From Candidatus Hydrogenedentota bacterium (GTDB lineage: Bacteria > Hydrogenedentota > Hydrogenedentia > Hydrogenedentales > SLHB01), in assembly GCA_963668025.2 (NCBI GenBank), contig CAXXTH010000019.1, forward strand, positions 128,001-192,000: a stretch of DNA of 64,000 nt, given 5' to 3'. Below are positions 6,023 to 55,437 of the stretch, piece after piece (position 1 is the stretch's first letter; every line of letters starts with the position of its first letter). The position numbers were made by a program, and so were the translations under genes. The notes beneath the pieces were generated by a model, which worked only from the letters and a program-made list of their open reading frames with translations, was not told the origin of the DNA and did not search any database.

Positions 6023-6312
6023 ACACCCAAAGCGGCAGCGGGCTTCCGAACTCCAAACTATTTGACATGAAAAGACTTAGAGCGAATGTTTGGCGAGATC
6101 GATTGCTGCCGCTTTCATGTTCTTTTTCGCACTACTACCTGTCAGGATGTCGTTTTCTTGCGAAGATTCTTCATGCAAATCCAGTCGCATCACATGGGCG
6201 GGACGCCCATGCTACGGGAGATGCAAAAACATTTTAGAGGATATATTGGCGTTCATTCGCGTCCATTCGCGGTTAAAAGCAAGCCGTTTGGTTGCGGCCA
6301 TGCCGCGTTACG
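6023..6312. repeat. Cluster of REP-like palindromes (composite)
   Basis: AAAGCGGCAGC...TTGCTGCCGCTTT pair as at 9913-10000; CATGGGCGGGACGCCCATG...GTTGCGGCCATGCCGCG composite as at 39370-39487. Confidence 0.7.
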
Positions 6313-39343: not shown

Positions 39344-39487
39344 CGTGGCATGGCCGTCCCGGCCATGCGCATGGGCGAGACGCCCATGCCACGGAAGTAA
39401 AAACATCGATAAACATTTATTTGTGTGTATGAGTGTTCATTCGTGGTCCAACATCCAGATCTTTTGTTGCGGCCATGACGCGCTGTG
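39344..39487. repeat. REP doublet plus composite repeat
   Basis: CGTGGCATGGCCGTCCCGGCCATG..CATGGGCGAGACGCCCATGCCACG; tail resembles 6220-6312. Confidence 0.78.
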
Positions 39488-49848: not shown

Positions 49849-51016
49849 GTGTATTGATTTATAATTAAGGCAACTTATTTGGTTTGAGAGGTATTCATCT
49901 TGTAGCGGAGGATGAATACGATGAAAGTCGCATGTGAAATCGTGTTGGACGAACAGGAACGTTCTACGCTCGAAAAGTGGTCGAAAGGCCGTATGACGCC
50001 GGTACGCGTGGTACTGCGCGCAAAGATTGTGCTGTTGGCGGCTTCGGGCATGGAGAACAAAGGCATTGCGGCAGCGCTTGGTATCGGACGCGATACGGTG
50101 GGACAGTGGCGGCGCCGGTTCTCTGAGTGCCGTTTGGCGGGGATCGTTAAGGACGCTCCCCGCGGCGGTCGCAAGCCCACGCGTCGGGAAGAGGTGACCC
50201 GGCTCATCGTAGAGCGCACAACGCAGGCCAAGCCTGCAAACGCCACTCATTGGAGTACCCGGACGCTGGGCAAGGAGTTGGGGGTGAGTCCGTCGATGGT
50301 TCAGCGTGTGTGGCAGGCCAATGGGTTGAAGCCGCACCGCGTCAAGACCTTCAAGGTGAGCAATGACAAGCAATTCGTGGAGAAGATGCAAGACATTGTT
50401 GGCCTGTATCTCAACCCCCCTGAACATGCGCTGGTGTTGTGCGCAGACGAGAAGAGCCAGATTCAGGCCCTGGACCGGACCCAACCCGGATTGCCCATCA
50501 AGAAAGGGCGCTGCGGCACGATGACCCATGATTACAAGCGCAACGGCACGACGACCCTTTTTGCCGCGCTCGAACTGGCCGAAGGCCGTCTCATCGGCTC
50601 GTGCATGCAACGGCATCGCCATCAGGAATGGATCACGTTTCTTAAGCAGATTGATGCGGAAACGCCTGAGGGACTCCATCTGCACCTGATTGTCGATAAT
50701 TACGCCACGCACAAACATCCCAAGGTCACCGCTTGGCTTAAGCGGCATCCCCGGTTCCATATCCATTTCACGCCGACGAGCAGTTCGTGGCTCAACCTGG
50801 TGGAACGCTGGTTCCGAGAGATCACAGACAAGCGCATTCGGCGCGGCGTCTTCAAATCCGTCAAGGACCTCGTTCAAGCGATCATGGACTACATTCAACA
50901 GCATAACGCCGACCCCAAAACATTCGTCTGGCACGCAAAAGCCGAGGACATTCTTGCCAAAGTCCGCCGGGCAAGAGCACGGCTGGATAAGATGGCAACA
51001 GCATGAATCAATACAC
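49849..51016 (+). mobile_element. IS630-family element
   Basis: TIR GTGTATTGATT / AATCAATACAC; TA duplication at a CTAG site. Confidence 0.95.
49912..51006 (+). CDS. IS630 transposase
   Basis: [29 protein letters not shown]. Confidence 0.95.
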
Positions 51017-51320: not shown

Positions 51321-52700
51321 ATGAGTCTTTTACACGAATGGCTCAACGTTACCGAGCGCTGGCGCGATGCTTTTGCCCAAGAGCGCACCACCGTGCGTGC
51401 GGTGCGGCAGGGACTTGGGTCACTGGTCTGTTTGGGGCGGCGCACAATCACGCGGACCCTTTGGGCCTGTGGTCGCGAGAATCTGCCGTGGCAGGCTGAA
51501 TACCACATGTACGGCCGCGCCAAGTGGGACCCCCAGCAGCTCTTCGACCCTATTTGGGAAGGAGCCCTGCCCCAGTGTGAAGACCCGCTTGTAGGCGTCG
51601 CCGTCGATGATACCAAGCTGCACAAGACCGGCCGGTGCATTGTCCAGGCTTTTCATCAGCGCGACCCCCTGTCCCCGCCGTTCCACACCAATCTCATTCT
51701 GGGCCTGCGTTTCCTGCAGGCCTCCCTTCTCGTACCGCTTCACCAAGGCGGCGCCTTTAGTTGCCGCGCCTTGCCCGTGCGTTTCGAGGAGCCTTCCCCC
51801 GCCAAGAAGCCTGGCAAGCGCGCAAGCGAGGAGGAGTGGATGGCGTACAAGCAGCGCCGTAAAGAGAAGAACCTTTCAACCCATTGCGTGGCGATGATGG
51901 ACTCCTTGCGCGCATCCCTCGACGCCGTCGGCGCCAGGGAGAAAACCTTGGTCATGGCCCTCGACGGCAGCTTTTGCAACCAGACCGTCTTCGACGCTGA
52001 ACGCGACCGCACCCACCTCATCGCCCGTGCCCGCAAGGACGCAGTCCTATGCTTTGGCGCTCCAGAGGGTTCGCGGCGTTTCTATGCCCAAGAAAAATTC
52101 ACCCCCGAGCAAGTACGCCAGGACGATAGCATCCCCTGGAAGACTACGAAGCTATTCTACGGCGGCAAACGCCGCAAGGTCCGCTACAAGGAAATCAAGA
52201 CCCTCTACTGGCAAGGCGGCGCGCGCCGTCTTCCCCTCCGCCTTTTCGCTATCGCTTCCACCCCCTACCGCAAGCGGAAAAGCAGTAAGCTTTATTACCG
52301 GCAACCAGCCTACCTTCTTTGTACCGACAGGGTTCACGCCGCACAGAGGCTGCTCCAGATCTACTTCGACCGCTGGCAGATTGAAGTCAACCATCGCGAG
52401 GAAAAGGACACCTTGGGCGTCGGACAAGCTCAGCTCTGGAACCCCAATGCCGTACCCAAGCAGCCCCCGCTTGCCGTCGCCGCCTACAGCGCATTGCTAC
52501 TGGCCGCCATAAAAACCTTTGGCCCCGAACGAAATAGTGCATACGCCCCGCTGCCACGGTGGCGAAAACACGCCACACGCCCATCGTGCCTCGCTCTCAT
52601 CACTCTATTGAGAAAAGAGATGGACGAACAGCCCCATTTGCTCCGTCCACTCGGCATAGAAACCTCCAGAGCAACAATGGCAAGCGCCGCGGCTGCTTAA
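51321..52700 (+). CDS. DDE transposase (IS701/IS4-like)
   Basis: AVDDTKLHKTG, LDGSF, YFDRWQIEVNHREEK; ATGA overlap with the wHTH gene. Confidence 0.88.
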   Translation: MSLLHEWLNVTERWRDAFAQERTTVRAVRQGLGSLVCLGRRTITRTLWACGRENLPWQAEYHMYGRAKWDPQQLFDPIWEGALPQCEDPLVGVAVDDTKLHKTGRCIVQAFHQRDPLSPPFHTNLILGLRFLQASLLVPLHQGGAFSCRALPVRFEEPSPAKKPGKRASEEEWMAYKQRRKEKNLSTHCVAMMDSLRASLDAVGAREKTLVMALDGSFCNQTVFDAERDRTHLIARARKDAVLCFGAPEGSRRFYAQEKFTPEQVRQDDSIPWKTTKLFYGGKRRKVRYKEIKTLYWQGGARRLPLRLFAIASTPYRKRKSSKLYYRQPAYLLCTDRVHAAQRLLQIYFDRWQIEVNHREEKDTLGVGQAQLWNPNAVPKQPPLAVAAYSALLLAAIKTFGPERNSAYAPLPRWRKHATRPSCLALITLLRKEMDEQPHLLRPLGIETSRATMASAAAA

Positions 52701-52740
52701 TAATGGAGAAACTCCAGGCATGGGCGTCCCGCCCATGCCA

Positions 52741-53517
52741 GTGCGACTGCGAGTGTACGCTGTCCGAGAGGTGTGAGTCCTCTTCAGGCATGCACGCTCC
52801 GGCCTGTAGCCGACTGTAACTGCGTCGCCGCGAGGCGGGGTGGAGAGCAACGGAAGGCGAACGGCCAGTCCGTAGGATACGAACTCGATTCGGCCTGATG
52901 TTCCGGCGAGCCTGCTGGCAAATGGCGAAGCCTAGAAATAACCGGTCACGCTAAGGGGTCGTGTGCAAAAGCGATGGCGGGGGAACATGGGGTGGTTGGA
53001 GACGGAATGGCCAGGAAGGCAGAGTACATGAAGCAGTGAGAGCCGCTTAGGGTAAGCAGGCAGAAATGCCACTGAGCGGCAGTCAGAGCCGCCATAGTAG
53101 CGAGGAAACGCCGTAATGGGCGTGGAGCGAAGGGCGGTAGGAAGGTGGATGGGTGAGTACGGAATGCGAGGAAATACAACCGTCACCAGTGAACCGCGCA
53201 AGCAGTTCTAAACATGCCGGAGATAACCGCCCCTACTGGAAGCGAGCGGTCCTTGCGTCTGGACGGAACCCATGTTGGCGGCCCTGAAACAAGGGGTGAA
53301 AGGAAGGCGATGGTTCAGCTTGATGGATAAGCAGACCATCAATACTGAGCTAATGCTTACTTTGGCGGCCATAGGTCTTTTCAGCTTACAAAAGCCTATG
53401 AAACCGCTCGCCAATCCTCCAAGAGGTAAGACCACCAACTGGAGAGCCGTATGCGGGAGATCTGCACGTACGGTTCGGAGGGAGGGGAGACCGGCCAACG
53501 GTCTTCCCTACCCCTAT
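52741..53517 (+). ncRNA. Group II intron ribozyme with deleted intron-encoded protein
   Basis: 5' GTGCG; DIII CAGTCAGAGCC..ATAGTAGCG...GGAGCGAAGGG; DV GAGAGCCGTATGCGGGAGATCTGCACGTACGGTTC (AGC triad); DVI ending CCCTACCCCTAT; only IEP termini remain. Confidence 0.92.
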
Positions 53518-53543
53518 CGACACTCGATTGCCCTGATCTGCCA

Positions 53544-53580
53544 TTCACCGGTGCTGCGGCGTGCCGTACCATTGGCTGCC
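53544..53580. repeat. 37-bp direct repeat of 55437-55473 (3' end of the GT gene)
   Basis: TTCACCGGTGCTGCGGCGTGCCGTACCATTGGCTGCC exact; ~10 more bp degenerate. Confidence 0.95.
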
Positions 53581-53692
53581 GCATGGCCGATCTATTTGTT
53601 TTTTGTATGGACAAAATAGTTGCTTTATGGTATAGCTTATATGGAGCAGTTAAGTTTAATATTACGTACTTAACAAGCAAGGAGTAATTGTC

Positions 53693-54601
53693 ATGAAGAA
53701 GCTAGTGTTCTCTATGAGTGTTCTTTTTAGTCTCCTTTTTTCCTTAACCACATGGGCTCAGTTTTCTACAAACGATCTTGAGAATCCTAAGCCAGGTTCG
53801 TTTATTGCGAATCTAGTTGAACAAGAAGCTGGAATAGCCGCAAATGAGACTATGAGCGATAATGTCCGAAATCTATACTTTAAAGGAGAACTTTTTACTT
53901 GGTATTCACAGTTATATTTTAGTAGGAATTATGCTGCTTTCTTCAATAGCATAGAAAGAGTACCACGAATTCAAAAATTGATGCAGATTATCCGTACTGG
54001 GTCTTCAGACGAAAAAGCTAAATTGAAAGCATGTGTTATTGGCATGTGTAATTTTTACATAAAAGAAGCTCCTCTATTGCCTTCGTCTCAAAATACGGAT
54101 CCTGCCTCGGTCGCTTTTAATAATGAACCTTCGGCATTATTTCCAAAGGATGGAATTGCATATGCTTATTTGTTGAGTTATATAGATGAAAAAGGTGATA
54201 TGCTTCCATTGCTAGTAAAAATGCATGAGCGACAACAAGAGGCATCGTATGAGTTAGGAAAACTCATGCTTAGTAAGAATAACTCCGATAATGTTGAATC
54301 TACACCAAAGGTGTTTACTGCAACTATACATGGCGCAATTATTTCCTATGCATGCGGACATATTATGCGGGCGATTACTATAAATGAAGAAAAAAAAGAC
54401 TCTCTTACAGAGATACAGAAAAGTGTATTGGAGCGGTTTGTACAGCTTGAAGCAGAAAACCAAGCTGAATGGGAAAAAGATATTGCGGAAAACCTCCAAA
54501 ATACAGATGAACAGCTAGAGAAAAAAAGACCTGAATGGATGGATATGAATTCTCAGACTAAAATTCTTGCACTTGCAAAAGAGTACGTTTCAGCTATATG
54601 A
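53693..54601 (+). CDS. Secreted hypothetical protein, AT-rich
   Basis: RBS AAGGAG; signal peptide ending TTWA; upstream TGGACA-N17-TATAGC. Confidence 0.8.
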   Translation: MKKLVFSMSVLFSLLFSLTTWAQFSTNDLENPKPGSFIANLVEQEAGIAANETMSDNVRNLYFKGELFTWYSQLYFSRNYAAFFNSIERVPRIQKLMQIIRTGSSDEKAKLKACVIGMCNFYIKEAPLLPSSQNTDPASVAFNNEPSALFPKDGIAYAYLLSYIDEKGDMLPLLVKMHERQQEASYELGKLMLSKNNSDNVESTPKVFTATIHGAIISYACGHIMRAITINEEKKDSLTEIQKSVLERFVQLEAENQAEWEKDIAENLQNTDEQLEKKRPEWMDMNSQTKILALAKEYVSAI

Positions 54602-54632
54602 ATAAAATCACAGCATAACTACACAAAGGGAG

Positions 54633-55334
54633 ATGTGTGTCATGAAAAAAATGAATGTAATTATGTTTTTTTTAGTGTTGTCTGCTTTTTGTGCAACCGC
54701 AGATGAACCTAACGGAACAGTAGACGACTTTTTTTGTACTGGCTTATATGAAGGAGGAGGAATTCAGACTATTTTTTTTAAATTAGCCAGGTATGAGATT
54801 CCTGATGCCGATGATGATGAATGCTATAATGGCGCAGATTGGTGCATATCTACCTCTACAGGAAGAAAAGTTGCACATTGGCATCTCGATACTTCCTATC
54901 GCTCTGATTTAACAAGCGAAGAAAAAGCTAATATGAATAGACTTTATGAGTATATGAATTCATGGGCAACTTCCCAGAATCGAATAGGTTATCCTTCAAT
55001 TGCATATAATTGTCATGCTTATGCGTGGGGACGAAACGATATCTTAATTTTAGGAACACCATATGGTGGAGATGGGATGGAGCGTTTATTTGCTGACGAT
55101 TGTGAACATATTAATAGTCAGCAATTATGTGAAACGGGAGATCTATTTAAGCATACTCCAAATCCAGGTATAGATCATACATCGATAATAGATGCAGGAA
55201 CATTAAATGGTGTCACAGTAATTGATAAGTTTCGAGGAAAAATGGGTTTTTATGGTATTTATAGATTGGATAGAGATACAGTTTTTGATGATGCATTAGG
55301 TAGTGATAATGGTGGTATTTTTCGAAAGGAATGA
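54633..55334 (+). CDS. Secreted protein with papain-like NCH motif, AT-rich
   Basis: Signal peptide; YNCHAYAW...DHTSII...KMG. Confidence 0.7.
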   Translation: MCVMKKMNVIMFFLVLSAFCATADEPNGTVDDFFCTGLYEGGGIQTIFFKLARYEIPDADDDECYNGADWCISTSTGRKVAHWHLDTSYRSDLTSEEKANMNRLYEYMNSWATSQNRIGYPSIAYNCHAYAWGRNDILILGTPYGGDGMERLFADDCEHINSQQLCETGDLFKHTPNPGIDHTSIIDAGTLNGVTVIDKFRGKMGFYGIYRLDRDTVFDDALGSDNGGIFRKE

Positions 55335-55437
55335 ACCCTAAAATATTAATGAATATTTCTAGTAGAGGATAATGCTTCGTCTAAACCGTAAACCGCAAAT
55401 ACGCTTGAGAAGGAGCTTTATCCTCTATTTTTATTCT

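What the first reader, a model, noticed from the sequence alone, without database searches (positions are those of the whole stretch)
52718..53525. ORF-less group II intron inserted in a host REP hairpin, with a matching candidate EBS1
Seen: a 777-nt intron with GTGCG start, DIII, full-length DV (AGC triad) and DVI. The IEP is reduced to its N-terminus (VWTEPMLAALKQGVKGRRWFSLMDK) joined at ~53331 to a frameshifted C-terminal scrap (DHQY*ANAYF..GLFSL..ARQSSKR*), while the ribozyme core motifs look intact. Removing the intron restores GCATGGGCGTCCCGCCCATGCCA|CG, the REP family also at 39369-39393 and 6193-6216. TGGCA at 52916-52920 is complementary to the exon end TGCCA. Known: insertion after hairpins is typical of IIC introns, which have a CGC triad and short DV, unlike this one. 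Inference: a non-autonomous, non-IIC intron that uses REPs as safe landing sites and borrows an RT in trans.
Basis: partly seen in the sequence, partly recalled or inferred. Interest (0 to 1): 0.75.

Follow-up and report, generated by a model that had tools for sequence, protein, structure and literature searches.

The report
Gene-less hairpin-homing group II intron
This is a real, structurally intact self-splicing group II intron that has lost its own reverse-transcriptase gene and sits just behind a small repeated DNA hairpin. It belongs to a widespread intron lineage that always lands behind hairpins, so it is a well-supported variant of a known kind of mobile element.

Summary
Window 52741-53517 is a 777-nt group II intron (Rfam domain V/VI, 56.6 bits). 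Only scraps of its reverse-transcriptase gene remain, joined at 53331|53332. It lies 1 nt after a REP hairpin, and TGGCA (52916-52920) is its EBS1.

The genome (a Hydrogenedentota relative) holds 4 copies with the same deletion junction. Three are at the same position of the same REP family. The fourth is at a non-REP site whose 5' exon was later split by an IS630-type element.

In 50 related insertion sites from genomes and metagenomes, the homologous loop pairs 5/5 with the exon end in 37, against 4.9% when shuffled. All 69 distinct 5' exons carry a hairpin ending 0-6 nt before the site.

The core is not class C: it has an AGC triad, a 33-nt domain V with a 5-nt loop, and a relative's protein that scores far below class C levels. 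Its targeting is nevertheless IIC-like. No EBS2 was found.

Loss of the gene recurred at least 9 times in this lineage. No cognate reverse transcriptase is in this assembly; the best is 36-39% identical. The copies therefore spread with a helper that is now absent or unassembled, or with a foreign one.

Earlier notes of this scan report similar gene-less hairpin or REP introns in other genomes.

The parts
52717..52739 (+). REP hairpin. The 10-bp stem pairs 52717-52726 with 52730-52739 and the loop is TCC. It is the structured DNA target just 5' of the insertion site.
   Evidence: Read. Folded at -16.6 kcal/mol, lower than all 1500 random 45-mers of the genome. The REP family has 298 strand-specific exact matches in the genome.
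52736..52740 (+). IBS1 (TGCCA), the last 5 nt of the 5' exon.
   Evidence: Perfect complement of EBS1.
52741..53517 (+). ORF-less group II intron, 777 nt.
   Evidence: There are 4 copies in the genome, 97-100% identical.
52746..53037 (+). Domain I (intron positions 6-297), with stems I(i), I(ii), IA, IB, IC and ID.
   Evidence: Consensus fold. In one search, 94.9% of cells are paired against 35-42% in the slid controls.
52792..52797 (+). Alpha (GCACGC), in the IB loop.
   Evidence: Pairs with 52961-52966. This is helix 6: 78% of cells paired, and 3 of 6 pairs changed on both sides.
52905..52932 (+). EBS1 hairpin in domain ID. The loop is 52913-52923.
   Evidence: A sub-threshold alignment to Rfam group-II-D1D4-3 places it in the same hairpin.
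52916..52920 (+). EBS1 (TGGCA).
   Evidence: At the homologous loop offset, 37 of 50 distinct sites pair 5/5 with their own exon end, against 4.9% when shuffled. There are 33 distinct EBS1 5-mers.
52961..52966 (+). Alpha' (GTGTGC), in the terminal loop of hairpin 52942-52981.
52995..52995 (+). Candidate EBS3 (G), which pairs with the first base of the 3' exon.
   Evidence: Across 54 elements the base at this position complements the first 3'-exon base in 51: G:C 41, A:T 5, T:A 4, G:T 1.
53042..53080 (+). Domain II, a short hairpin.
   Evidence: It shows compensatory differences between the genome's own copies.
53088..53138 (+). Domain III.
   Evidence: Rfam group-II-D1D4-1 matches at 30.2 bits, below its cut-off of 35.
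53257..53331 (+). N-terminal scrap of the intron-encoded protein (25 codons shown; 81% identical to G009 over 27 aa).
53334..53429 (+). Decayed C-terminal scrap of the protein. It is in another frame, with an internal stop and further frame changes.
53444..53476 (+). Domain V: 33 nt, AGC triad at 53445-53447, 5-nt loop GAGAU.
53479..53514 (+). Domain VI, with the bulged branch A at 53510 and a 3-bp basal helix.
   Evidence: Rfam alignment, and reading.
53518..53518 (+). IBS3 (C), the first base of the 3' exon.
   Evidence: All 4 copies have a 3' exon that starts with CG.

Best explanation
The element is a non-autonomous deletion derivative of a retrotransposing group II intron. An internal deletion of about 1.07 kb removed the reverse-transcriptase/maturase gene and left the whole ribozyme.

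The lineage finds its DNA target much as class C introns do. It needs a GC-rich hairpin, presumably extruded in single-stranded DNA, that ends about 3 nt before the insertion point. It also needs 5 bases that pair with EBS1 and one base that pairs with EBS3. No second exon-binding site is involved.

In this genome EBS1 (UGGCA) matches the conserved 3' tail of a REP family (GCCCATGCYA|CG). One guide sequence therefore gives access to about 160 harmless intergenic sites.

Shown here: the ribozyme fold, the EBS1 and EBS3 pairings, the hairpin rule, four copies at four different sites with one shared junction, and the recurrent gene loss in the lineage.

Inferred: that the copies arose by reverse splicing and reverse transcription with a protein supplied in trans. 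Also inferred: that this protein was a cognate one that is no longer in the genome (or not in the assembly), so that the copies are now probably dormant though still foldable.
For: Identity of the element:
- RF00029 matches at 56.6 bits.
- Fold: 94.9% of cells are paired and 60 of 123 pairs change on both sides. The slid controls give 8-15 such pairs, and 0 of 500 shuffles reach the observed values.

Deletion derivative:
- G009 carries a full-length 1844-nt relative with a 447-aa RVT_1+GIIM protein.
- That relative aligns to intron positions 1-591 and 591-777.

Spread:
- There are 4 copies, each covering 1-777, with different flanks.
- Three lie at GCCCATGCYA|CG of the REP. The genome has 158 empty such sites and 3 occupied ones.

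Target rule:
- EBS1 pairs 5/5 in 37 of 50 sites, against 4.9% shuffled.
- The EBS3 base is complementary in 51 of 54 elements.
- A hairpin ends 0-6 nt from the site in 69 of 69 distinct exons.

Intactness:
- The four copies differ from the consensus at only 2-3 of 143 positions that are at least 95% conserved in 38 full-length elements. These differences are a compensated pair (C304-G338) and a G.U wobble.
- Between the copies there are compensatory pairs: G124-C271 against A124-U271, and changes in the DII stem.

Mobility in trans in this lineage:
- Gene-less forms arose at least 9 times on the tree, with different breakpoints.
- Two 100% identical 771-nt gene-less elements sit behind different hairpins (L117, L145).
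Against: - No cognate RT is in the assembly. The best tblastn hits are 36-39% identical class C proteins, so the helper is not identified. The assembly is 93.75% complete in 24 contigs, so absence is not proven.
- The copies differ by 1-21 positions of 778 columns. The two C10 copies carry EBS1 UGGGA, which mismatches position -4 of their exon.
- One copy's 5' exon was later split by an IS. These points suggest old rather than current activity.
- 20 of the 21 variable columns lie in positions 75-336 and none in 337-761. That fits recombination between variants better than simple divergence after transposition.
- No transcript, spliced-exon or empty-site evidence was obtained.
Confidence: 0.75

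Rival explanations
1. The copies are still mobile today, mobilised by the reverse transcriptase of one of the two resident class C intron families. One of these has 16 nearly identical copies, and both also target hairpins.
For: - 16 class C copies, each behind a terminator-like hairpin, 3 of them behind REP-like hairpins.
- Both kinds of intron use hairpin targets.
- The ribozyme of the 777-nt element shows no disruptive change.
- G000 and G002 hold gene-less copies, and G032 holds a larger deletion derivative that keeps part of the gene. None of the three has an RT matching the G009 query at E<=1e-60 that is close to it; G000's one match is 37% identical.
Against: - The class C protein is only 37% identical to the nearest cognate-type protein.
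- The RNAs share nothing but one 20-nt stretch.
- The 777-nt copies have diverged by up to 2.7%, whereas the 16 class C copies share identical sequence over the 5' ~100 nt inspected; their overall identity was not measured.
- To my recollection, cross-class mobilisation has not been reported. I did not search for it.
Confidence: 0.15
2. It is simply a member of bacterial class C (IIC).
For: - Hairpin targeting, no EBS2 found, small size and a 3-bp DVI basal helix.
- The relatives' protein lacks an endonuclease domain.
- The best, though sub-threshold, Rfam D1-D4 matches are to the same two models that the resident class C introns hit.
- Earlier notes of this scan call look-alikes 'class C-like'.
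Against: - AGC, not CGC. Domain V is 33 nt with a 5-nt loop, and the RF00029 match is 76 nt against 72 nt for the resident IIC.
- EBS1 is 5 bp.
- D1D4-3 scores 26 bits against 122-144 bits for the resident IIC.
- The G009 protein scores 195-196 bits against solved IIC RTs, where the resident IIC protein scores 286-449. It scores 171 bits against a chloroplast-like RT.
Confidence: 0.1
3. The gene-less RNA works on its own as a protein-free DNA-cutting or self-integrating ribozyme, like the HYER ribozymes. It would be kept for that activity rather than as a parasite of an RT.
For: - HYERs are described as natural gene-less group IIC introns with a 6-nt recognition site (review passages in PMC12990946 and PMC11754743).
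- Here EBS1 plus EBS3 also give 6 nt.
- The core is conserved without a cognate RT.
Against: - No activity data.
- Copying into DNA still needs a polymerase.
- The HYER paper itself was not available to me, so likeness to HYER sequences is untested.
Confidence: 0.05
4. The copies spread at the DNA level, by REP-mediated recombination or duplication, and not by retrotransposition.
For: - 3 of 4 copies share the REP upstream.
- The variable sites form a mosaic that implies recombination between copies.
Against: - The flanks are unrelated beyond the REP, and the 3' flanks share only CG.
- The boundaries coincide exactly with the intron ends in all 4 copies, including the non-REP copy.
- In G032, where two copies do share flanks, the duplication is plainly visible. 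That is not the case here.
Confidence: 0.03

Closest known systems
Bacterial class C (IIC) group II introns such as B.h.I1. Features as listed in the introduction of Toor et al. 2006, PMC1702495, which I read.
   Same: - Insertion just after a DNA stem-loop.
- Short exon pairing with EBS1 and EBS3, and no EBS2.
- Small ribozyme, and a protein without an endonuclease domain.
- Location in intergenic 'safe' sites.
   Different: - AGC instead of CGC.
- Domain V is not shortened by 2 bp and has a 5-nt loop.
- EBS1 is 5 bp rather than 3-4.
- Alpha' is in a terminal loop.
- The hairpins lack a T-run.
- The protein scores far below class C levels against solved IIC RTs.
Group IIE/IIF introns (Nagy et al. 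2013, PMC3753933; passages read).
   Same: - Alpha' at the tip of a stem-loop in domain ID.
- 5-nt loop in domain V.
- Ribozyme of 450-700 nt.
- Protein without an endonuclease domain.
   Different: - Those introns show an apparent EBS2-IBS2 pairing and are described as homing to sequence sites.
- Here no EBS2 was found and every site has a hairpin.
- Protein phylogeny was not tested.
Gene-less bacterial introns mobilised in trans. Sources: the survey by Simon et al. 2008 as summarised in Zimmerly and Semper 2015, PMC4424553 (passages read), and Thermosynechococcus (Mohr et al. 2010, PMC2882425; listing and abstract only).
   Same: Deletion derivatives that keep the ribozyme and occur in several copies.
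   Different: The review says such introns nearly always sit in genomes with closely related protein-coding introns. Here none is in the assembly.
HYER ribozymes (Liu et al. 2024). I saw them only through review passages in PMC12990946 and PMC11754743.
   Same: Natural compact gene-less group II introns with about 6 nt of target recognition.
   Different: They are described as IIC. A hydrolytic DNA-cutting function was shown for them and is untested here. Sequence likeness is untested.
Intron types g6, U1 and U2, found next to terminators (Miura et al. 2022, PMC8919778; passages read).
   Same: Non-C protein types that sit immediately after terminator hairpins.
   Different: That survey gives no RNA anatomy in the passages I read. 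Whether this lineage is one of those types is untested.
Group II intron and IS insertions in Pseudomonas REPs (Tobes and Pareja 2006, PMC1525189; table read).
   Same: REPs serve as targets of mobile elements. In P. putida, 2 of 9 group II intron copies are REP-associated.
   Different: There the association is partial and no pairing rule is given. Here 3 of 4 copies are at one exact position of the REP, with a matching EBS1.

Membership tests
Group II intron ribozyme | 5' GUGYG and 3' AY ends | tested here: met
   GTGCG at 52741 and ...CTAT ending at 53517. The same ends occur in all 4 copies.
Group II intron ribozyme | Domain V/VI matching Rfam RF00029 above its cut-off, with a bulged A in DVI | tested here: met
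   56.6 bits against a cut-off of 40, and A53510 is unpaired in the alignment.
Group II intron ribozyme | Multi-domain fold kept by compensatory change | tested here: met
   94.9% of cells paired, 60 of 123 pairs changed on both sides, and 0 of 500 shuffles as high.
Group II intron ribozyme | EBS1-IBS1 pairing with the 5' exon | tested here: met
   5/5 pairs in the window copy, and in 37 of 50 sites of the lineage.
Group II intron ribozyme | Self-splicing activity | not testable with these tools
   No spliced reads were found. An in vitro assay is needed.
Class C / IIC (Toor et al. 2006) | CGC in place of the AGC triad | tested here: not met
   AGC at 53445-53447. AGC is found in 53 of 54 elements of the lineage. 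The two resident IIC families have CGC.
Class C / IIC (Toor et al. 2006) | Distal stem of domain V 2 bp shorter | tested here: not met
   Domain V is 33 nt in 52 of 54 elements. The RF00029 match spans 76 nt here and 72 nt in the resident IIC family.
Class C / IIC (Toor et al. 2006) | 11-nt epsilon' bulge with conserved AGGAA | tested here: inconclusive
   In the sub-threshold alignment to D1D4-3 the homologous stretch reads AGCAA. The predicted bulge is about 6 nt. The alignment is weak.
Class C / IIC (Toor et al. 2006) | EBS1-IBS1 of only 3-4 bp | tested here: not met
   5 contiguous pairs in 37 of 50 sites. Three of this genome's own copies (C14, C10a and its twin C10b) have only 3 contiguous pairs (C10b by identity of its exon end and EBS1).
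Class C / IIC (Toor et al. 2006) | No EBS2/IBS2 | tested here: met
   No complementarity to exon positions -4 to -18 recurs at a homologous unpaired column in 9 sequences.
Class C / IIC (Toor et al. 2006) | Stem-loop in the 5' exon where IBS2 would be | tested here: met
   All 69 distinct exons have one, most often 3 nt from the site. The window copy folds at -16.6 kcal/mol.
Class C / IIC (Toor et al. 2006) | Protein of clade C | tested here: not met
   By score proxy only. The G009 protein scores 195-196 bits against solved IIC RTs. The resident IIC protein scores 286-449 bits. No reference tree was built.
IIE/IIF (Nagy et al. 2013) | [quoted passage not shown] | tested here: met
   Alpha' at 52961-52966 lies in the terminal loop of hairpin 52942-52981. 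The pairing with alpha covaries.
IIE/IIF (Nagy et al. 2013) | 5-nt loop in domain V | tested here: met
   The loop is GAGAU here. A 5-nt loop is predicted in 41 of the 53 elements folded; one further element had no AGC match and was not folded.
IIE/IIF (Nagy et al. 2013) | Apparent EBS2-IBS2 pairing | tested here: not met
IIE/IIF (Nagy et al. 2013) | Protein in clade E or F | not tested
   No reference protein sequences of these classes could be obtained with the tools.
Gene-less introns mobilised in trans | Protein gene deleted, ribozyme kept | tested here: met
Gene-less introns mobilised in trans | Several copies with the same deletion at different sites | tested here: met
   4 copies.
Gene-less introns mobilised in trans | A closely related protein-coding intron in the same genome | tested here: not met
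   The best hits are 36-39% identical. The assembly is 93.75% complete.
HYER ribozymes | Protein-free hydrolytic cleavage of DNA | not testable with these tools
   Known to me only from review passages.

The most novel reading that the evidence does not exclude
This is a lineage of group II introns outside class C that has the IIC way of finding targets: a DNA hairpin plus 6 paired bases and no EBS2. It repeatedly sheds its reverse-transcriptase gene to give MITE-like ribozyme-only elements of about 700-900 nt. These elements persist and spread in genomes that lack any cognate reverse transcriptase. That would mean either mobilisation across intron classes or a protein-independent step of integration.
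Probability: 0.2. Interest if true: 0.75.

Novelty: new variant of a known kind. Interest (0 to 1): 0.5.

Why it matters
Two reviews I read bear on this. [quoted passage not shown] Another says that only class C introns are reported to use an upstream stem-loop.

Here a lineage with a non-C catalytic core follows a strict hairpin rule at 69 of 69 sites. It lost its gene at least 9 times. In this genome it has four foldable copies and no cognate protein.

This gives a clean natural data set for three questions:
- How hairpin recognition is built into the RNA.
- Whether a foreign reverse transcriptase can mobilise these RNAs.
- Whether small programmable ribozymes can be found outside class C.

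In kind it remains a variant of well-known retroelement behaviour.

Tried and rejected
Sequencing runs. Four runs, all held as contigs, were laid on 52300-53900. No contig joined the exons across the intron. No empty site was seen, and nothing shows transcription. The one RNA run gave three contigs, 90-95% alike, over conserved parts only. One 130-nt contig of a wastewater run (X4) spans 53277-53406 with 5 differences, so it bridges the deletion junction. I do not count this as independent support. A contig of run X5 matches up to 52718 and then runs on unlike, which only marks the end of the upstream IS.

Junction search. The exact 22-nt junction had 0 matches in metagenome contigs.

Genome-contig scan with the G009 protein. 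It found only G009 itself.

Search for an EBS2. Nothing recurred at a homologous column.

Naming the class.
- Rfam D1-D4 models match only below threshold.
- The solved-structure search gives scores but no class.
- Simon et al. 2008 and the HYER paper are not held.

Closest full-length relative. Among the complete metagenome elements compared, none is closer than G009. The best is 74% identical over positions 1-590, against 78% for G009.

The idea that all four copies were in REPs. I tested whether the C14 copy had been in a REP before the IS630-type insertion. The restored exon ends ...GATCTCGGTCTA and is not a REP. I rejected the idea.

Biases to note.
- Complete short elements fit short metagenome contigs more easily than 1.9-kb ones. 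The share of gene-less forms (12 of 50 complete elements under 1000 nt, plus 3 intermediate) is therefore an overestimate.
- EBS1 was read with a regular expression. Sites where it found no loop were dropped before the count of 50.
- The hairpin count of 69 has no matched random background. A background was made only for this genome.
Full report
WHAT IS THERE. Reading 52500-53800 shows a 10-bp GC-rich hairpin (52717-52726 paired with 52730-52739, loop TCC). It is followed by A52740, then GTGCG at 52741, and ...CCCCTAT ending at 53517. An Rfam scan of the whole window at curated thresholds gives one match. This is Intron_gpII (domains V and VI) at 53442-53517, 56.6 bits against a cut-off of 40. 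Domain V is 53444-53476, with AGC at 53445-53447. It is 33 nt with a 5-nt loop. Domain VI has a bulged A at 53510.

The frame from 53257 reads VWTEPMLAALKQGVKGRRWFSLMDK up to 53331. From 53334 another frame reads DHQY*ANAYF...ARQSSKR*. These are the two ends of an intron-encoded protein. The REP pattern occurs 4 times in the window against 0.07 expected. The copies at 6193 and 39370 are empty sites that read ...GCCCATGCTA|CG and ...GCCCATGCCA|CG.

COPIES AND PARENT. The window's genome (G000, 24 contigs, 93.75% complete) holds 4 matches to the 777 nt. All cover positions 1-777 at 97-100% identity, so all carry the same deletion. A sensitive blastn finds no longer version.

Among 61 related genomes, 19 including G000 have a match. 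In G009 the intron aligns as 1-591 (78%) and 591-777 (77%), with 1.07 kb between. That element is 1844 nt and encodes a 447-aa protein with RVT_1 and GIIM and no endonuclease domain. The junction is thus at intron position 591, which is 53331|53332. The G009 contig is titled a Candidatus Hydrogenedentota MAG. G009 is of the same family as G000.

A tblastn of that protein against G000 finds only two things. One is class C-type RT genes, 36-39% identical. The other is the 27-aa N-terminal scraps of the four copies. No cognate RT is in the assembly.

INSERTION SITES IN THIS GENOME. Three copies (C19, which is the window, and two on C10) lie directly after CATGGGCG-NNN-CGCCCATG-CYA, and all four have a 3' exon that begins with CG. 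The genome has 158 empty GCCCATGCYA|CG sites and 3 occupied ones.

The fourth copy (C14) follows the end of an IS630-type element. Comparison with six other copies of that IS shows that it inserts at CTAG with a TA duplication. Here it went into the CTA|G formed by the exon-intron junction. The original exon...GATCTCGGTCTA, is not a REP. So 3 of 4 copies are REP sites, and all four sites share CYA|CG.

THE RIBOZYME. I aligned domains I-III of three G000 copies and six relatives and derived a consensus fold. On it, 94.9% of cells form standard pairs, against 35-42% when partners are slid. 60 of 123 pairs change on both sides, against 8-15 in the slid controls. None of 500 shuffles reaches the observed values.

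TGGCA lies in the 11-nt terminal loop of a hairpin in the distal part of domain ID. A sub-threshold Rfam alignment puts it in the same hairpin. An alpha-alpha' loop-loop pairing (52792-52797 with 52961-52966) covaries.

Against 143 positions that are at least 95% conserved in 38 full-length elements, the G000 copies differ at 2-3. These differences are a compensated pair in DII (U-A to C-G) and one C-to-U change that gives G.U.

Between the copies there are further compensatory pairs: G124-C271 against A124-U271, and changes in the DII stem. Oddly, 20 of the 21 variable columns lie in positions 75-336 and none in 337-761. The alleles form a mosaic, which points to recombination between variants rather than clock-like decay.

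THE LINEAGE AND ITS TARGET RULE. A degenerate pattern from domain ID found more than 120 stretches in metagenome contigs, of which 80 were fetched. With profile searches for the two ends I obtained 50 complete elements:
- 33 of 1750-2000 nt
- 12 of 411-771 nt
- 3 intermediate in length
- 2 of about 3.7 kb

Joined with the genome copies, these give the target rule:
- EBS1: at 50 distinct sites where both the EBS1 loop and the exon could be read, 37 pair 5/5 from position -1, against 4.9% for shuffled partners. There are 33 different EBS1 words.
- EBS3: the base homologous to G52995 complements the first 3'-exon base in 51 of 54 elements.
- Hairpin: all 69 distinct 5' exons have a predicted hairpin whose 3' arm ends 0-6 nt from the site, 27 of them at 3 nt. 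58 have at least 5 consecutive paired bases.

No EBS2 emerged. In G000's own background the REP exons fold better than 99% of random 45-mers. The target is therefore a hairpin plus 5+1 paired bases. REP-like hairpins of the CATGGSCG type recur as targets in G054, L085, L147 and L136.

WHICH CLASS. The two other intron families of G000 are textbook class C:
- They start with GUGUG and have a CGC triad.
- They have a shorter domain V (72-nt RF00029 matches).
- They are inserted after a hairpin plus T-run.
- They score 122-144 bits to Rfam D1D4-3.
- The 16-copy family's protein scores 449 and 286 bits against solved IIC RTs (third family's protein not scored).

The present lineage has AGC and a 33-nt domain V with a 5-nt loop. 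It scores 26 bits to D1D4-3. Its protein scores 195-196 bits against the IIC RTs and 171 bits against a chloroplast-like RT. By the features that Toor et al. 2006 list for IIC (PMC1702495, introduction read), it fails on domain V and on EBS1 length. It meets the missing EBS2 and the exon stem-loop.

It shows the two oddities that Nagy et al. 2013 list for IIE/IIF (PMC3753933, passages read): alpha' in a terminal loop and a 5-nt domain V loop. It lacks their apparent EBS2. Miura et al. 2022 (PMC8919778, passages) report non-C protein types (g6, U1, U2) right after terminators, and this lineage may be one of them. I could not test that.

LOSS OF THE GENE IS RECURRENT. On a maximum-likelihood tree of domains I-III (52 rows; I left out the near-duplicate copies C14 and C10b), the 14 gene-less rows need 11 changes. 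Well-supported branches force at least 9. Breakpoints differ between lineages: left end at 566-638 and right end at 1598-1682 of the sister element. G002's 918-nt element is 92% identical to a full-length sister (L116).

Two 771-nt gene-less elements are 100% identical but sit behind different hairpins with different 3' exons (L117, L145). This indicates recent movement of a gene-less element. Short contigs favour complete short elements, so the share of gene-less forms is overestimated.

HOW IT MOST LIKELY WORKS. Shown: the fold, the pairings, the hairpin rule and the multiple sites. Inferred from established knowledge of group II intron mobility: the RNA, transcribed by read-through, is excised and reverse-splices into single-stranded DNA. 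There the hairpin forms and the 6 bases pair. The RNA is then copied by a reverse transcriptase supplied in trans.

The window copy lies in sense direction behind an IS transposase gene (51321-52700, DDE_5), which could supply the read-through transcript.

Several facts bear on the helper. The only RTs present are 36-39% identical class C proteins. The copies have diverged by up to 2.7%. One junction was later hit by an IS. The two C10 copies carry a mismatching EBS1. From these I think the helper was a cognate protein that is now lost or unassembled, and that the copies are dormant but foldable (0.75 for the whole reading). Cross-mobilisation by the resident class C proteins (0.15) and a protein-free HYER-like activity (0.05) are not excluded.

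WHAT IS KNOWN.
- Gene-less bacterial introns are called rare and nearly always accompanied by close relatives (Zimmerly and Semper 2015, PMC4424553, passages).
- Natural gene-less IIC introns, the HYERs, are known. I saw review passages only (PMC12990946, PMC11754743).
- Stem-loop targeting is described for IIC. Sonbol and Siam 2021 (PMC7923331, passages) state that no role of upstream structure was reported for IIB introns.
- REPs as targets of IS elements and of 2 of 9 P. putida intron copies are tabulated by Tobes and Pareja 2006 (PMC1525189).
- My searches for 'group II intron' with 'repetitive extragenic palindromic' and with 'Hydrogenedentes' found no description of this lineage.
- Earlier notes of this scan describe similar gene-less hairpin or REP introns in other genomes, 37 notes by word search. 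Some share short words with this sequence. They are AI notes and not independent evidence, but they fit the picture that the phenomenon is common.

VERDICT. The finding is real and well supported. In kind it is a variant of known behaviour: a non-autonomous group II intron that targets hairpins. Its interest lies in three things: the non-C core combined with IIC-like targeting, the recurrent gene loss, and the missing helper.

Noticed in passing
G000 contigs, e.g. C10:216973-218875 (L009). None of the copies lies at the finding itself.: A 16-copy family of canonical class C introns (identical over the 5' ~100 nt inspected): GUGUG start, CGC domain V, a 487-aa frame. Each copy sits after a terminator-like hairpin plus T-run. 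Three of the 16 are behind REP-like hairpins.
   Followed up: partly
G000:C10:694486 and C17:956627 (L059 about 2838): Two copies of the 16-copy class C intron begin immediately after the last base of domain VI of a different class C intron. It looks as if the domain VI stem-loop of one intron served as the target hairpin for the other.
   Followed up: no
G000:C14:100666-101911 (L002 about 255-1500): An IS630-type element (7 copies in the genome, 99% alike) is inserted at CTAG with a TA duplication, exactly at the 5' exon-intron junction of the C14 intron copy. It replaces the original exon while keeping the CUA that pairs with EBS1.
   Followed up: yes
window 51321-52718: An IS with a DDE_5 transposase (459 aa) ends at about 52718, directly against the REP hairpin. 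A contig of run X5 matches up to 52718 and then diverges. An IS630-like DDE_3 gene lies at 49912-51006.
   Followed up: partly
G000:C17:415037-415125, minus strand: A relic of about 110 nt in which the 3' end of domain I is fused to a domain V/VI-like segment ending ...CTTCTAT|CG, just after a terminator-like hairpin. It is a heavily deleted relative of the same or a similar intron.
   Followed up: no
L045 (G046:C141) and L065 (G046:C17): In G046 neither copy's EBS1 matches its own exon, but the EBS1 of the C17 copy (TACCG) is the perfect complement of the exon end of the C141 copy (CGGTA). This suggests exchange of domain I segments between copies.
   Followed up: no
L095 and L114 (metagenome loci): Two elements measure about 3.7 kb from the 5' end to the next matching domain V/VI. 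That is twice the usual length, so they may be tandem or nested introns.
   Followed up: no
window 53600-55400: A stretch that looks AT-richer than its surroundings (judged by eye; no composition profile was run), just downstream of the intron. It holds two ORFs (302 and 233 aa, both with signal-peptide-like starts) that match no Pfam family.
   Followed up: no
L068 and L032 (G032:C11 and C16): A 772-nt derivative that lacks the 3' half of domain I through domain III but keeps part of the protein's C-terminus. It is present twice with identical upstream flanks, so it is a segmental duplication and not a transposition.
   Followed up: partly
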